DNA from: Escherichia coli
Lineage (GTDB): Bacteria > Pseudomonadota > Gammaproteobacteria > Enterobacterales > Enterobacteriaceae
Assembly: GCF_045037415.1 (NCBI RefSeq)
Contig: NZ_CP173438.1
Length of the DNA: 64,000 nt
Direction: 5' to 3' (one strand)
Shown here piece after piece: positions 27,861-34,063 of the stretch. Position numbers and translations under genes: made by a program. Each line of letters starts with the position of its first letter. Position 1 is the stretch's first letter. The notes under the pieces are model-generated. The model saw only the letters and a program-made list of their open reading frames with translations. It was not told the DNA's origin and did not search any database.

Positions 27861-27896
27861 GTCGTGATGTGAACTGACTCAGGAACCTATCAGATT

Positions 27897-27955
27897 GAGA
27901 GTTACCGTTCTACTATGAGGACCGAATCCTTATATAAAACACTGAGGTAACTCTC
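27897..27955. repeat. 10 bp inverted repeat (GAGAGTTACC ... GGTAACTCTC) 37 bp past betA stop, at the proximal edge of the accessory island
   Basis: Read directly from sequence; could be a betA terminator or island boundary. Confidence 0.4.
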
Positions 27956-28944
27956 ATGCTTCATCGTGACAATCTCGCCAGCAAATTCTAAGCTGACTTG
28001 CTCAATCTGGCTGATGAATGTGCTATGCATACACAGATAAACTACAGATGAAATACCACTCAGCTTAAGAATTACGCCGCTAATGTTCCTGGCTATGGTT
28101 ACCTGTTCATTCCCGCTCACGGTTAGCATATACGAAAAGGGTTCTTGTAACGAGTACAAAAATAAGTCAGACCAAAACCACATGGAGCTTTAAACACGAT
28201 TCGTATAATTTATTAGCAGTGATTTATTTTTACTCTTCTTTAATTAATCATCATGCTTAAATATTTTTTAGCACAAGATTATCGCTTCGCTAACATTTTA
28301 GTTTACATTAATTTTCAATTGATAATAAAAAGTTGTTAATAAGTTTTTTGCGGAAAATAAAAAGTGTTGGAATACTCTCCATCAAATGAATGCAAAATAA
28401 ACAAATTGAGATATACAAAAAGTAAAAATCATTTAAATGAATATTTTAAATTTATGAGCAGAACCCATTAACAATGATTTACTCACGACCAGAAAAGTAA
28501 AGAACACCTTGCAATAATATGTATTTATAAATTCATATCATTGATATTAAACTAATCTTACTTTCTACCCTCCAAATTTATGCATCAAAAAAAACAAAAG
28601 TAAAATCAATTAGATACACAACAAGACGATCTCACAGGAAATGATGTTAAATATCTCAAAACTAATAAAAATCACTAAAACATTAGACGTAATACACATC
28701 CCACACGACCTGTCACTCATAGTTTTAATATTTATTTTTTCACATCATAGTAGATAAAAATACGCATTAAAAATGACTTGTAGAAAAGCTGCACAATAAA
28801 TAGTTCATATTTAATCTGTTGCGTAGAACTACTATTCAAAAAATCTTATTAATGAGATAATGAGATTACATCGATAACGTTCTGATTGCAGGCATACTTA
28901 TCTGGGTGTGCCTCTCTTTTTTTTACAACTGTACACGGTGGCGT

Positions 28945-29508
28945 ATGACGAGAAAATATCTCACACAGGATGAAGTCTACAGGCTGATGGATGCAGCCCA
29001 GAGCATGTCCTTTCCTGAAAGAAATCGCTGTCTAATTATGATGGCTTTCATTCACGGTTTTAGGGCCAGTGAACTTCTTGATTTACGTTTATCCGATATT
29101 GATGCATCTGGAAAACAACTTAATATTCGGCGTATTAAAAATGGTTTCTCGACAACACATCCTCTTCTTCCTGATGAATATAATTTGATCAAGTTGTGGC
29201 TTAAGCAGAGGAAGTTAATTGAAAACGGAGTTGAAGGAGACTGGCTTTTTCTCTCCCGGAAACGCCGCCCTATCAGCAGACAACATTTTTTTTCTATCAT
29301 TCGTGAGGCTGGAAAACGTGCAGGATTAGCTGTAAAAGCACATCCTCATATGTTACGTCATGCCTGTGGTTTTGCTCTGGCTGACAATGGTGTCGATACC
29401 CGACTACTTCAGGATTATCTGGGTCATCGAAATATTCAGCATACTGTCAGATACACAGCCAGTAATGCTGCTCGTTTTAAAGGGGTGTGGAAAAAAAAGC
29501 CTCGTTAA
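28945..29508 (+). CDS. FimB/FimE-type site-specific tyrosine recombinase (phase-variation recombinase, IpuA-like)
   Basis: ORF 28906-29508, probable start MTRKYLTQDEV; strong similarity by eye to FimE (LLDLRLSDID, INIRRIKNGFSTTHPL, HPHMLRHACGFALA, LGHRNIQHTVRYTASNAARF) including catalytic R-H-R-Y residues. Confidence 0.85.
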   Translation: MTRKYLTQDEVYRLMDAAQSMSFPERNRCLIMMAFIHGFRASELLDLRLSDIDASGKQLNIRRIKNGFSTTHPLLPDEYNLIKLWLKQRKLIENGVEGDWLFLSRKRRPISRQHFFSIIREAGKRAGLAVKAHPHMLRHACGFALADNGVDTRLLQDYLGHRNIQHTVRYTASNAARFKGVWKKKPR

Positions 29509-29520
29509 AACAGTACCTTC

Positions 29521-29798
29521 TGATTCAAAATGTCAGATTCCTACGTTTTCCTCAATTCTTCCATAAAAAAACAGCCCATTCAATTAAATAAAACACATAA
29601 CATGTTGATATTTCTAGCTAAAGTAAAATAACCCTATGATTTGAAATGATTAATCACAAAGGTCATACCAGTGATTAACTTTCGCCCATATCGTTAAATA
29701 ACACAAAATTAAAAACAATAAAAATCAAACAAATTAGATTTATATTCCAAGAAAATTAAATATTCAGGCTATTAAACCAAACCTGACATTTTGAATCA
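29521..29798. other. Candidate invertible DNA element (phase switch): 278 bp segment bounded by perfect 16 bp inverted repeats
   Basis: TGATTCAAAATGTCAG at 29521-29536 and its exact reverse complement CTGACATTTTGAATCA at 29783-29798; right end also forms palindrome CCTGACATTTTGAATCAAAATGTCAGG (29782-29808); lies between recombinase stop (29508) and regulator start (29838); internal sequence very AT-rich. Confidence 0.6.
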
Positions 29799-31547: not shown

Positions 31548-31588
31548 GTGGGAAATTGAAATTAGTTACCAGAATGGAGAATTTCTTC

Positions 31589-33880
31589 ATGAAAAACAGT
31601 AAGGCATTTTACCGCAGCGCATTAGCGACAGCTATTGTTATGGCTCTTTCTGCACCAGCATTCGCTGCTGATAACGCGGTATCAACTACACCGGTTACAT
31701 TGGATAAAGATAAGACAACTCTGGAACAAGATGTTGTTATTAGTGGTACTACACAGATTACAGCCGCAACAATTAATGCGAAAGATAAAGACCTTAATGT
31801 TACTTTGGGTGGTCATGATATTACCGCCACATCAACGGTAGACCAAGGTTTCGTTGAAGGTGTAAAAGTTAGCGGTGACAAAAATGTTGTGATTAATGCT
31901 ACAGGCTCCACCATCACAGCTCAAGGTGAAGGTACCTATGTCCGAACTGCAATGGTCATTGATTCAACTGGCGATGTTGTTGTTAATGGCGGTAACTTTG
32001 TTGCAAAAAATGAAAAAAGTAGTGCGACAGGTATATCTCTGGAAGCGACCACGGGAAATAATTTAACGCTCAATGGCACAACCATAAATGCTCAAGGTAA
32101 TAAGAGTTCCAGCAACGGCTCTACGGCAATTTTTGCTCAAAAGGGTAATTTGTTGCAGGGTTTTGACGGTGATGCAACCGACAACATCACCCTTGCTGAC
32201 TCAAATATTATTAATGGTGGGATTGAAACAATAGTTATTGCCAAGGAGAATAAGGGAATTCATACAGTCAACCTGAATATTAAGGATGGCTCAATAATTG
32301 GGGCGGCTAATAATAAACAAACAATTTATGCCTCTGCTTCGGCACAAGGCGCAGGTTCAGCAACGCAAAATTTAAATTTGTCTGTTGCTGATTCAACCAT
32401 CTACTCTGATGTCCTGGCCCTTTCTGAAAGCGAGAATTCAGCCGGTACCACAACAAATGTAAATATGAACGTTGCCCGCTCTTACTGGGAAGGTAATGCT
32501 TATACGCTCAATAGCGGCGATAAAGCGGGTAGTGATCTGGATATAAATCTTTCCGATAGTTCAGTCTGGAAAGGCAAAGTTTCAGGGGCAGGAGATGCCA
32601 GTGTATCTCTGCAAAACGGGTCTGTCTGGAATGTTACGGGTTCCTCAACTGTTGATGCTCTGGCAGTAAAAGACAGTACGGTTAATATCACGAAGGCTAC
32701 AGTCAATACTGGCACGTTTGCTTCTCAAAACGGCACTCTGATTGTTGATGCCTCTTCTGAAAACACTCTGGATATCAGCGGAAAAGCGAGCGGTGACTTG
32801 AGTGTTTACAGTGCGGGTTCATTGGATCTTATCAATGAACAAACGGCATTTATTTCTACCGGCAAAGACAGCACTCTAAAAGCCACAGGCACAACGGAAG
32901 GTGGTCTGTATCAATATGACCTGACACAGGGAGCTGATGGTAACTTTTATTTCGTAAAAAACACGCATAAAGCATCCAACGCCAGCTCCGTGATTCAGGC
33001 AATGGCAGCTGCTCCGGCTAACGTCGCTAATCTGCAGGCTGACACGCTCTCCGCCCGTCAGGATGCTGTCCGTCTGAGCGAAAATGACAAGGGTGGCGTA
33101 TGGATTCAGTACTTTGGCGGTAAACAGAAACATACCACCGCGGGAAATGCATCCTATGACCTGGATGTAAATGGTGTAATGCTGGGTGGTGATACCCGCT
33201 TCATGACTGAAGATGGTAGCTGGCTGGCCGGTGTGGCGATGTCTTCTGCGAAAGGTGACATGACTACCATGCAGAGCAAAGGTGACACTGAAGGTTACAG
33301 CTTCCACGCTTACCTGAGCCGCCAGTATAACAACGGTATCTTCATTGATACTGCTGCACAGTTTGGTCACTACAGCAACACGGCAGATGTTCGCCTGATG
33401 AATGGTGGCGGTACCATCAAAGCTGACTTTAACACCAATGGTTTTGGTGCGATGGTTAAAGGCGGTTACACATGGAAAGACGGTAATGGCCTGTTTATTC
33501 AGCCATATGCCAAACTGTCTGCTCTGACTCTGGAAGGTGTGGATTATCAACTCAACGGCGTGGACGTTCATTCTGACAGCTATAACTCTGTGCTGGGTGA
33601 GGCCGGTACGCGCGTGGGTTATGACTTCGCTGTGGGCAACGCGACCGTTAAACCTTATCTGAATCTGGCCGCACTGAACGAATTCTCTGATGGCAACAAA
33701 GTCCGTCTGGGTGATGAGTCTGTCAATGCCAGCATTGACGGTGCAGCATTCCGCGTGGGTGCAGGTGTACAGGCTGATATCACCAAAAACATGGGAGCAT
33801 ATGCAAGCCTTGACTACACCAAAGGTGACGACATTGAGAACCCGCTACAGGGTGTAGTTGGTATCAATGTGACCTGGTAA
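31589..33880 (+). CDS. Autotransporter (type Va) adhesin-like protein, UpaE-like
   Basis: ORF 31556-33880; probable start MKNSKAFYRSALATAIVMALSAPAFA (signal peptide); T/S/N/G-rich repetitive passenger; C-terminal beta-barrel ending ...GVVGINVTW. Confidence 0.85.
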   Translation: MKNSKAFYRSALATAIVMALSAPAFAADNAVSTTPVTLDKDKTTLEQDVVISGTTQITAATINAKDKDLNVTLGGHDITATSTVDQGFVEGVKVSGDKNVVINATGSTITAQGEGTYVRTAMVIDSTGDVVVNGGNFVAKNEKSSATGISLEATTGNNLTLNGTTINAQGNKSSSNGSTAIFAQKGNLLQGFDGDATDNITLADSNIINGGIETIVIAKENKGIHTVNLNIKDGSIIGAANNKQTIYASASAQGAGSATQNLNLSVADSTIYSDVLALSESENSAGTTTNVNMNVARSYWEGNAYTLNSGDKAGSDLDINLSDSSVWKGKVSGAGDASVSLQNGSVWNVTGSSTVDALAVKDSTVNITKATVNTGTFASQNGTLIVDASSENTLDISGKASGDLSVYSAGSLDLINEQTAFISTGKDSTLKATGTTEGGLYQYDLTQGADGNFYFVKNTHKASNASSVIQAMAAAPANVANLQADTLSARQDAVRLSENDKGGVWIQYFGGKQKHTTAGNASYDLDVNGVMLGGDTRFMTEDGSWLAGVAMSSAKGDMTTMQSKGDTEGYSFHAYLSRQYNNGIFIDTAAQFGHYSNTADVRLMNGGGTIKADFNTNGFGAMVKGGYTWKDGNGLFIQPYAKLSALTLEGVDYQLNGVDVHSDSYNSVLGEAGTRVGYDFAVGNATVKPYLNLAALNEFSDGNKVRLGDESVNASIDGAAFRVGAGVQADITKNMGAYASLDYTKGDDIENPLQGVVGINVTW

Positions 33881-33918
33881 GAATAAAGCAGTCGGTTCCC
33901 CTGTCGACTGTTATACCC

Positions 33919-33947
33919 CCTGCAGGCAGCAGTATGCTGCCTGCAGG
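33919..33947 (+). terminator. GC-rich hairpin (CCTGCAGGCAGC-agtat-GCTGCCTGCAGG) 40 bp after autotransporter stop
   Basis: Perfect 12 bp stem read from sequence; weak U-tract. Confidence 0.45.
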
Positions 33948-34063
33948 CTATAAATATCCAGTACTCATGATGCTGGCTTTTTGCTGATATTTACCCTGAA
34001 CATTCCTGATACAGACTATTAATACAACCTTATCTGCGACAGATTTCATTTTCTGGATATATT

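What the first reader, a model, noticed from the sequence alone, without database searches (positions are those of the whole stretch)
27880..33950. ~6 kb AT-rich accessory island between betA and ykgH carrying recombinase, switch, regulators and autotransporter
From memory of the K-12 map, betA and ykgH are close neighbours. Here they are separated by ~6 kb containing a 1 kb ORF-poor, extremely AT-rich leader (27900-28900), a tyrosine recombinase, the candidate switch, two LuxR-like regulators and a 774 aa autotransporter. A 10 bp inverted repeat (27897-27955) and a GC hairpin (33919-33947) mark the two edges. The composition and gene content indicate horizontally acquired, probably H-NS-silenced, phase-variable adhesin DNA.
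Basis: partly seen in the sequence, partly recalled or inferred. Interest (0 to 1): 0.65.

Follow-up and report, generated by a model that had tools for sequence, protein, structure and literature searches.

The report
Known E. coli island PAI-X (fimX–hyxRAB)

Summary
A 5,991-bp insert (window 27965-33955) separates betA from ykgH. These two genes are 212 bp apart in K-12 MG1655. About 35% of 5,426 complete E. coli genomes carry the insert.

It is the published island PAI-X, also called the UpaB cluster or GI-4:
- fimX/ipbA/hbiF, a tyrosine invertase
- the invertible element hyxS, with 16-bp perfect inverted repeats
- hyxR, a LuxR/GerE regulator
- hyxA, a second regulator
- hyxB = upaB, a type Va autotransporter whose passenger domain matches PDB 6BEA

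The position, the 43.1% GC and the "two LuxR/GerE regulators" reading are all in print.

- The left inverted repeat (27896-27956) is core DNA that empty-site genomes also have. It is not an island edge.
- The GC hairpin lies inside the island, 6-8 bp from its right end.
- No target-site duplication, att site or tRNA flanks the insert.
- H-NS silencing is untested, and published expression data argue against full silencing.
- Phase variation is documented for hyxR. For the adhesin it is only indirect.

Small additions from this work:
- 15 public genomes carry hyxS in the predicted flipped orientation.
- About 100-125 genomes carry a precise 272-bp deletion of the switch.
- HyxA is predicted to have a response-regulator-like fold without the phospho-acceptor aspartate.

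Verdict: already known; low interest.

The parts
27965..33955 (.). Whole insert: PAI-X, also called the UpaB cluster. 5,991 bp with a 2-bp 'AT' ambiguity at the junction; 43.1% GC.
   Evidence: blastn against the empty site; RefSeq annotation of a 100%-identical genome; GC; literature
27965..28944 (.). AT-rich non-coding leader upstream of fimX (30.6% GC). It holds the lowest-GC 500 bp of the window. It is single-copy and always travels with the island.
28400..28800 (.). Hypervariable patch within the leader. It is 69-85% identical to strain C51, next to 99-100% identical fimX.
   Evidence: sliding identity; two allele classes of the leader
28945..29508 (+). fimX (= ipbA = hbiF), a tyrosine-type DNA invertase of 187 aa. 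Catalytic R40, H135-x-x-R138, H161 and Y170 are present.
   Evidence: NCBIfam NF007370, 251.6 bits against a cut-off of 221; annotation; residues read from the translation
29521..29798 (.). hyxS invertible element. Left repeat TGATTCAAAATGTCAG at 29521-29536, right repeat at 29783-29798 (perfect 16-bp inverted repeats), 246 bp between them, 27% GC.
   Evidence: 16-bp repeats stated in PMC6083910; 15 genomes carry the exact predicted inversion against 1,780 in the window orientation
29776..29814 (.). Near-perfect 39-bp palindrome that contains the right repeat. It also provides a direct-repeat copy (TGAATCAAAATGTCAG, 29793-29808) of the left repeat.
   Evidence: the deletion allele junction lies here
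29838..30632 (+). hyxR, a LuxR/GerE-family regulator of 264 aa. The helix-turn-helix is at residues 135-183.
   Evidence: Pfam GerE, E = 2e-6; annotation
30786..31547 (+). hyxA, 253 aa. There is no sequence-family match. The predicted fold is a receiver-like alpha/beta domain plus a four-helix LuxR-type helix-turn-helix, and no aspartate is seen at the phospho-acceptor position.
   Evidence: no match; AlphaFold2 model, pLDDT 76.8; Foldseek matches to FixJ, RcsB and VraR, E = 1.7e-6 to 1e-4 over about 210 columns
31589..33880 (+). hyxB = upaB, a type Va autotransporter adhesin of 763 aa, made of a signal peptide, a passenger domain and a C-terminal beta-barrel.
   Evidence: PDB 6BEA 'Autotransporter protein UpaB', E = 2.5e-256, residues 26-487; TIGR01414 barrel domain
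33887..33947 (+). Two hairpins downstream of the hyxB stop codon (33887-33912, and a 13-bp GC stem at 33919-33947). There is no T tract. The 73-nt tail 33881-33953 is 100% identical in CFT073 and O157.
   Evidence: fold, z = -5.3; identity
27896..27956 (.). NOT part of the island. This is the core betA-ykgH intergenic inverted repeat (11-bp arms), also present in empty-site genomes.

Best explanation
This is pathogenicity island PAI-X of E. coli, also published as the UpaB cluster and as GI-4 of APEC O1. It sits at its usual place between betA and ykgH.

How it works
1. FimX is a FimB/FimE-type tyrosine recombinase. It inverts the 278-bp element hyxS by recombining its two 16-bp inverted repeats.
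2. hyxS carries the promoter for the LuxR-type regulator gene hyxR, so hyxR expression is switched ON or OFF heritably. FimX also acts in trans on the type 1 fimbrial switch fimS.
3. HyxR and HyxA (called AutA and AutR in the APEC literature) bind the upaB promoter. One activates it and the other blocks the activator. They also affect the nitrosative-stress response, O-antigen chain length, K1 capsule and acid-resistance genes.
4. HyxB/UpaB is a type Va autotransporter whose beta-helical passenger domain mediates adhesion.

What was shown here: gene identities, exact boundaries, the inverted repeats, natural genomes in both switch orientations, and presence/absence across genomes.

What comes from the literature: FimX dependence of inversion, promoter control of hyxR, and regulator binding to the upaB promoter.

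What is inferred: the window shows the OFF state; HyxR = AutA and HyxA = AutR; and the adhesin is phase-variable only indirectly, through HyxR.
For: Identity of the island
- A 100%-identical RefSeq genome annotates ipbA ('also known as HbiF and FimX'), hyxR, hyxA and hyxB between betA and ykgH. CFT073 has the same layout with an identical FimX protein accession.
- PMC3789825 describes PAI-X as fimX plus hyxRAB, with hyxB = upaB.
- PMC4844996 describes the 'UpaB cluster inserted between betA and ykgH' with 43.08% GC, two LuxR/GerE-like regulators, gel-shift binding and in vitro transcription at the upaB promoter. My GC figure is 43.1%.

The switch
- PMC6083910 gives hyxS 16-bp repeats, inverted only by FimX, controlling hyxR. 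The SVRE preprint detects hyxS inversion when FimX is overexpressed in UTI89 and CFT073.
- The window has perfect 16-bp inverted repeats.
- 15 genomes carry exactly the predicted inversion, against 1,780 in the window orientation.

The proteins
- FimX scores above the NCBIfam invertase cut-off.
- HyxR matches Pfam GerE.
- The HyxA model matches NarL/FixJ regulators.
- UpaB matches PDB 6BEA.

Related loci: homologous recombinase-switch-HyxA modules occur in the T1-like locus L008 and in the diverged loci L009 and L010, in line with PMC11294581.
Against: - Nothing contradicts the identification.
- Open points concern the mechanism only. One paper reports four separate transcription units, while others write of a 'hyxRAB operon'.
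- The simple consensus scan found no strong sigma-70 promoter inside hyxS in the window orientation, so the ON/OFF assignment rests on inference.
- The primary Bateman papers could not be read.
Confidence: 0.95

Rival explanations
1. The region is ancestral E. coli DNA that was deleted in K-12-like lineages, rather than an insertion acquired horizontally.
For: - No target-site duplication, att-like repeat or tRNA flanks it. The only recombinase is an invertase, not an integrase.
- The neighbouring 'core' gene ykgH is itself AT-rich at 36.8% GC.
- The leader has diverged by 14-18% between island lineages, which suggests long residence.
Against: - In the two empty-site genomes aligned (UMNF18; MG1655) the flanks abut cleanly, with the same 2-bp overlap. 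About 3,300 other genomes match only the flanks. One insertion explains this more easily than repeated exact deletions.
- The island core genes are far less diverged at synonymous sites than the betA flank (dS 0.02-0.06 against 0.25). fimX plus hyxS are 99-100% identical across lineages whose flanks are about 95% identical. This points to later spread between lineages.
Confidence: 0.15
2. The adhesin gene is directly phase-variable. A single hyxS promoter drives one hyxR-hyxA-hyxB transcript, so UpaB switches ON and OFF together with the element.
For: - All four genes are on the same strand, and the hyxA-hyxB gap is only 41 bp.
- Two papers refer to a 'hyxRAB operon'.
- The paralogous ipuS switch drives a two-gene ipuR-upaE operon (PMC6083910).
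Against: - PMC4844996 detected no co-transcription across the three intergenic regions. It mapped regulator binding and activation at a separate upaB promoter.
- A 153-bp gap separates hyxR from hyxA.
Confidence: 0.2
3. The island is transcriptionally silent, H-NS-coated cryptic DNA.
For: - The 980-bp leader (30.6% GC, minimum 24.4%) and hyxS (27% GC) have the composition typical of H-NS targets.
Against: - No binding data were available.
- PMC4844996 reports transcript levels of all four genes similar to dnaE.
- PMC12922286 reports PAI-X genes expressed and up-regulated in a lysogen.
- Mutant phenotypes exist for hyxR, hyxA and upaB.
Confidence: 0.2

Closest known systems
PAI-X (fimX-hyxS-hyxR-hyxA-hyxB) of UPEC UTI89, CFT073 and EC958; the same element as the 'UpaB cluster' or GI-4 of APEC (autA, autR, upaB)
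   Same: Same locus (betA-ykgH), same gene order, same 16-bp switch repeats and same GC content. The FimX protein is identical to that of CFT073. Nucleotide identity to CFT073 is 97-100% segment by segment.
   Different: Nothing of substance; this is an allele of the same island. The hyxB passenger (97.2%) and the leader (98.3%) carry most of the differences from CFT073.
[quoted passage not shown]
   Same: A FimB/FimE-family tyrosine invertase sits next to a roughly 300-bp promoter-bearing invertible element bounded by short inverted repeats. FimX also acts on fimS.
   Different: - The repeats are 16 bp rather than 9 bp, with a different sequence.
- There is one recombinase rather than two.
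- The direct target is a regulator gene, not a structural fimbrial operon.
- Only FimX inverts hyxS.
ipuA/ipuB-ipuS-ipuR-upaE island of CFT073
   Same: The same design: recombinase, invertible element, LuxR-type regulator and autotransporter (PMC6083910).
   Different: - A different locus and different genes.
- 7-bp repeats, with the distal repeat inside ipuA.
- Two recombinases.
- ipuR and upaE form one operon.
- There is no HyxA-like second regulator.
Salmonella T1-antigen locus (STM0716 recombinase, switch, STM0718)
   Same: - It has a FimX ortholog (72% identity according to PMC11294581), a switch with a shared repeat core, and a HyxA homolog (about 39% identity).
- A locus of this type was recovered here: L008, with a perfect 16-bp inverted repeat TGATTCAAAAAGTTAA and 257 bp between the arms.
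   Different: The downstream cargo is a polysaccharide biosynthesis and ABC-export cluster (glf, glycosyltransferases), not an autotransporter. No HyxR-sized gene is called at the corresponding position.

Membership tests
PAI-X / UpaB cluster | Gene content and order: fimX, hyxR, hyxA, hyxB (upaB) | tested here: met
   RefSeq annotation of a 100%-identical genome and of CFT073; family and PDB matches
PAI-X / UpaB cluster | Chromosomal position between betA and ykgH | tested here: met
   position stated in PMC4844996
PAI-X / UpaB cluster | hyxS element with 16-bp inverted repeats between fimX and hyxR | tested here: met
   Perfect 16-bp repeats at 29521-29536 and 29783-29798; length stated in PMC6083910
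PAI-X / UpaB cluster | hyxS actually inverts | tested here: met
   15 complete genomes carry exactly the predicted inverted arrangement; 1,780 have the window arrangement
PAI-X / UpaB cluster | Inversion depends on FimX, and orientation controls hyxR transcription | not testable with these tools
   Literature only
FimB/FimE-type tyrosine DNA invertases | Family profile score above the curated cut-off, and catalytic R-H-R-Y residues | tested here: met
   NF007370, 251.6 bits (cut-off 221), and NF007371, 233.2 bits (cut-off 222); R40, H135, R138, H161 and Y170 read from the translation
LuxR/GerE helix-turn-helix regulators (HyxR) | GerE-type helix-turn-helix domain | tested here: met
   Pfam PF00196, E = 2e-6, residues 135-183
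LuxR/GerE helix-turn-helix regulators (HyxA) | GerE-type helix-turn-helix detectable by sequence | tested here: not met
   No Pfam or NCBIfam match for HyxA or any of 11 relatives. hhalign against HyxR aligns the helix-turn-helix registers, but only at E = 0.13.
LuxR/GerE helix-turn-helix regulators (HyxA) | NarL/FixJ-type fold (receiver-like domain plus four-helix DNA-binding domain) | tested here: met
   AlphaFold2 model with pLDDT 76.8 and pTM 0.72. Foldseek matches full-length FixJ, RcsB and VraR, E = 1.7e-6 to 1e-4, probability 1.00, about 210 columns; TM-scores are only 0.37-0.48. This is a predicted structure, not a solved one.
Two-component response regulators (HyxA) | Conserved phospho-acceptor aspartate at the end of beta-3 | tested here: not met
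   The beta-3 region reads VVISAGRP, with the consensus VISxGRP across relatives, and contains no aspartate. This was read by eye from the alignment.
Type Va (classical) autotransporters | N-terminal signal peptide, passenger domain and C-terminal 12-strand beta-barrel domain | tested here: met
   TIGR01414, E = 4.9e-69, residues 364-763; passenger matches 6BEA and barrel matches BrkA 3QQ2; the signal-peptide-like N-terminus was read from the sequence
Mobile genomic island | Integrase with att sites, flanking direct repeats, or insertion at a tRNA | tested here: not met
   No tRNA in 24000-38000. The longest shared word across the two junctions is 6 bp, below the shuffle mean of 7.2. The junction overlap is only 2 bp.
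Mobile genomic island | Atypical composition and presence/absence polymorphism | tested here: met
   43.1% GC against 57% for the bet genes; fimX GC3 0.33 against betA 0.66; present in about 35% of genomes
H-NS-silenced xenogeneic DNA | H-NS occupancy and derepression in an hns mutant | not testable with these tools
   Only the AT-richness is shown. Published expression data argue against complete silencing.

The most novel reading that the evidence does not exclude
The right-hand recombination site of hyxS is a near-perfect 39-bp palindrome (29776-29814). It therefore offers FimX both an inverted and a direct copy of the left site, differing only at the central base (T or A). This would let the same recombinase either flip the switch or excise it for good.

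In line with this, about 100-125 public genomes (around 6% of island carriers) carry a precise 272-bp deletion of hyxS. In the one deletion genome examined (strain 104), the junction keeps the right site's central base and fimX is still intact, 58 bp upstream of hyxR. If the deletion is made by the recombinase and has not been reported, it is a natural irreversible exit from phase variation. It would also be evidence that FimX is kept for its action in trans on fimS.
Probability: 0.3. Interest if true: 0.3.

Novelty: already known. Interest (0 to 1): 0.1.

Why it matters
PAI-X matters biologically. It is enriched in uropathogenic and avian pathogenic E. coli. It links a heritable DNA switch to regulators that affect nitrosative stress tolerance, O-antigen length, capsule and acid resistance, and it encodes a structurally characterised adhesin. 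All of that is already published, so this finding adds nothing conceptually new. Its value is as a correct annotation of the window. The census of switch states in public genomes (window orientation, flipped, deleted, or locked by loss of fimX) is a minor addition that could guide strain choice for experiments.

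Tried and rejected
- **Rfam:** a permissive search over 27500-34300 gave only a chance-level miRNA match on the GC hairpin (E = 0.23). No known RNA family is present.
- **tRNA:** none found.
- **Flanking repeats or att sites:** nothing above chance.
- **Paralogous copies of the leader elsewhere in E. coli:** a distant blastn found a single copy per genome, always at this island.
- **HyxA by sequence:** no match in Pfam or NCBIfam. BLASTP against HyxR found no similarity. 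hhalign was not significant. Only the predicted fold was informative.
- **HyxA word-index protein search:** it returned almost only E. coli copies and frameshifted fragments.
- **Consensus promoter scan:** no convincing promoter in hyxS, so ON or OFF could not be read from the sequence.
- **Primary papers:** the Bateman & Seed 2012, Bateman 2013, Allsopp 2012 and Bio-protocol papers are not held.
- **Strain ECNB21-M121:** I considered that the first 177 bp of the island might be shared with a different island there. It is an IS1-mediated truncation next to prophage genes.

Full report
**What is there.** The window runs betI, betB, betA (ending at 27860) and then, after about 6 kb, ykgH (34064-34732) followed by ykgG, ykgF and ykgE on the opposite strand. 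GC falls from about 57% in the bet genes to 24-31% between 28000 and 28900, and stays at 41-50% across the rest of the interval.

A megablast of 27500-34300 against 5,426 complete E. coli genomes found 1,832 genomes with at least 80% of the region. Roughly 3,300 matched only the two flanks, lying about 810 bp apart.

In a 100%-identical RefSeq genome the interval is annotated as follows:
- ipbA, 'tyrosine-type DNA invertase IpbA, also known as HbiF and FimX'
- hyxR, 'LuxR family transcriptional regulator'
- hyxA
- hyxB, 'outer membrane autotransporter'

K-12 MG1655 has ykgH and betA 212 bp apart with nothing between them. CFT073 has the island, with an identical FimX protein accession.

**Exact limits.** blastn against the empty site of strain UMNF18 aligns the left flank up to 27964 and the right flank from 33954. 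Two bases ('AT') are shared by both. The insert is therefore 5,991 bp, at 27965-33955 or equivalently 27963-33953.

No flanking direct or inverted repeat exceeds chance. The longest shared word is 6 bp, against a shuffle mean of 7.2. No tRNA gene lies nearby.

It lies wholly in DNA that empty-site genomes also have. It is a core betA-downstream hairpin (z = -3.3), not an island boundary.

The GC hairpin at 33919-33947 is real, with a 13-bp stem (z = -5.3 for the 110-nt context). It lies inside the island, 38 nt after the hyxB stop codon and 6-8 bp from the right junction. It has no T tract. A terminator-like hairpin with a T tract follows in core DNA at 33958-33976.

**The parts.**
- **FimX (28945-29508).** It scores above the curated cut-offs of both NCBIfam 'tyrosine-type DNA invertase' subfamilies. 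It retains the catalytic Arg, His-x-x-Arg, His and Tyr residues, read from the translation.
- **hyxS.** Thirteen bases after the fimX stop codon lies TGATTCAAAATGTCAG (29521-29536). Its perfect reverse complement sits at 29783-29798, 39 bp before the hyxR start. This matches the published description of hyxS as having 16-bp inverted repeats, being inverted only by FimX, and controlling hyxR (PMC6083910; bioRxiv 10.1101/494401).
- **HyxR (29838-30632).** It has a Pfam GerE helix-turn-helix (E = 2e-6).
- **HyxA (30786-31547).** It has no Pfam or NCBIfam match, either alone or through its relatives. An AlphaFold2 model built on 12 diverse relatives (pLDDT 76.8, pTM 0.72) shows a five-stranded alpha/beta domain followed by four helices. 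Foldseek matches it over about 210 columns to full-length NarL/FixJ-type regulators such as FixJ, RcsB and VraR (E = 1.7e-6 to 1e-4, probability 1.00; TM-scores only 0.37-0.48). The beta-3 position that holds the phospho-acceptor aspartate in true response regulators reads VISxGRP. HyxA therefore looks like a phosphorylation-independent, receiver-like LuxR-type regulator. PMC4844996 reached the same conclusion using Phyre2.
- **HyxB (31589-33880, 763 aa).** The 774-aa ORF starts at an upstream TTG. Residues 26-487 match the solved passenger domain of UpaB (PDB 6BEA, E = 2.5e-256). The C-terminus matches the BrkA barrel and TIGR01414.

**This is a known island.**
[quoted passage not shown] It notes that hyxB is upaB, that the island occurs in 24 of 50 genomes, and that hyxA and hyxR mutants have altered O-antigen chain length and serum sensitivity.
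- PMC4844996 describes the same DNA as the 'UpaB cluster ... inserted between betA and ykgH', with 43.08% GC. It interprets the cluster as horizontally acquired, with two 'novel LuxR/GerE family regulators', AutA and AutR. These bind the upaB promoter: AutA activates and AutR counteracts AutA. The paper reports the four genes as separate transcription units expressed at about the level of dnaE. My GC for the insert is 43.1%.
- From the locus-tag order (integrase 1681, then 1682 and 1683), I infer that AutA = HyxR and AutR = HyxA. I could not verify this.

**Independent evidence that the switch flips.** I built the sequence expected after recombination at the 16-bp repeats and searched for it.
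- 15 complete genomes match it end to end in one piece.
- 1,780 genomes match the window's arrangement. The junction sequences are as predicted.
- Six of the 15 belong to a variant in which fimX is cut down to its last 114 bp by IS elements, so the switch is presumably locked.
- The window has the majority orientation, the same as the CFT073 reference. CFT073 recombinase-deletion strains were reported as hyxS OFF. I therefore infer, with moderate confidence, that the window shows the OFF state.
- The consensus promoter scan could not settle this.

**A deletion allele.**
- In strain 104, hyxR starts 58 bp after the fimX stop codon. Alignment shows a clean 272-bp loss of hyxS, with the junction CCTTCTGA-A-TCAAAATGTCAGG.
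- The right repeat lies in a 39-bp near-palindrome (29776-29814). That palindrome also contains a direct copy of the left site, differing only at the central base. The deletion joins the left arm of the left site to this direct copy and keeps the right site's central A.
- 1,891 genomes have the switch flanks, but only 1,774 have the switch interior. About 4 of 60 evenly sampled matches to the junction query cover it end to end in one piece. That gives roughly 100-125 genomes, about 6% of carriers.
- Strain 104 also carries a distinct leader haplotype (81.5% identity), so the allele may descend from a single event.
- Excision by FimX is my inference. Deletion by ordinary recombination between short direct repeats, followed by a point change, is not excluded.
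- I found no mention of this allele in the papers held, but the primary PAI-X papers could not be read.

**History of the island.**
- Against O157, synonymous divergence is 0.25 for betA and 0.09 for ykgH, but 0.06 for hyxR and 0.02 for hyxA. The leader is 86% identical and the 73-nt tail after hyxB is 100% identical.
- Against strain C51, 28800-30000 (fimX plus hyxS) is 99-100% identical. The flanks are about 95% identical. A patch at 28400-28800 is 69-85% identical, and the start of the hyxB passenger is about 91-92% identical.
- This mosaic fits spread and reshuffling of island segments between lineages by homologous recombination. It supports 'horizontally transferred' better than composition alone does.
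- The rival reading, an ancestral region lost from K-12-like lineages, is not excluded. It is disfavoured by the scar-free empty site in the two such genomes aligned.

**Relatives elsewhere.** An exhaustive HMMER search with HyxA found only 28 representative proteins. Their contigs show the same module.
- L008 has a small tyrosine recombinase, a perfect 16-bp inverted repeat (TGATTCAAAAAGTTAA) spanning 257 bp, a HyxA homolog, and then glf, glycosyltransferase and ABC-transporter genes. This corresponds to the Salmonella T1-antigen locus, which PMC11294581 compares with PAI-X.
- L009 has a recombinase, a switch with 24-nt arms sharing the GTTCAAAATGTCA core, two regulator-sized genes and a long downstream ORF. 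L010 has the two regulator-sized genes and the long ORF, but its short contig shows no recombinase and was not scanned for a switch. Both look like diverged versions of the whole island.

- H-NS silencing could not be tested. The AT-rich leader and switch are plausible H-NS targets by composition, but published transcript data show the genes are expressed.
- Phase variation is documented for hyxR. For the adhesin it would be indirect, through HyxR and HyxA acting on the upaB promoter, unless a read-through hyxRAB transcript exists. Sources differ on this point.

**Verdict.** Novelty: already known. Interest: low.

Noticed in passing
window 29521-29814; L007 3134-3193 (strain 104): About 100-125 complete genomes carry a precise 272-bp deletion of hyxS. 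It joins the left site to the direct-repeat half of the palindromic right site (junction CTTCTGA-A-TCAAAATGTCAGG). In strain 104, the one deletion genome examined, fimX is intact and lies 58 bp from hyxR.
   Followed up: partly
L004 5001-5576 (strain Eco_24-2013 and 5 similar genomes): In this variant, IS66 and IS21 elements remove all but the last 114 bp of fimX, and hyxS is in the orientation opposite to the window. The switch is presumably locked.
   Followed up: partly
window 28400-28800: A hypervariable patch lies just upstream of fimX. It is 69-85% identical to strain C51, while fimX next to it is 99-100% identical. The leader as a whole falls into two allele classes (at least 95% identity, or 80-90%).
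   Followed up: partly
window 33881-33953: The 73-nt structured tail after hyxB (two hairpins) is 100% identical in CFT073 and O157, although hyxB (92.6%) and the adjacent core intergenic DNA (90.9%) differ in O157. Its function is unknown; it may be a terminator or a stabilising element.
   Followed up: no
window 34064-34732 (ykgH): The 'core' neighbour ykgH is itself AT-rich (36.8% GC). Its N-terminus gives a sub-threshold match to a polysaccharide chain-length determinant family (TIGR01006, E = 0.0095, far below the cut-off). This is curious given that hyxA and hyxR mutants alter O-antigen chain length, but it may well be chance.
   Followed up: no
window 30629-30769: A 46-aa ORF overlaps the hyxR stop codon (ATGA) and has a hydrophobic C-terminal half. 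It is annotated as a hypothetical protein in strain C51 but not in the 100%-identical genome.
   Followed up: no
window 29488-29500; L005 2096-2707 (APEC O18): APEC O18 has a 1-bp insertion just before the A8 run near the fimX 3' end. Its ipbA is annotated as 612 bp, extending into the switch, which is in the flipped orientation in that genome.
   Followed up: no
L003 (O157 strain AR-0430): The O157 copy of the island is decayed. fimX is frameshifted, hyxR has an internal stop, hyxB is split by a deletion, and ykgH has an internal stop.
   Followed up: partly
window 56850-57700 and about 21250-21750: These are two other strongly AT-rich stretches in the window. GC is 28-30% near 57000 and falls below 32% near 21250. 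They were not examined.
   Followed up: no
window 27896-27956: The core betA-downstream hairpin (11-bp perfect arms with a nested inner hairpin) is conserved in genomes with and without the island. The island was inserted 8 bp after it.
   Followed up: partly
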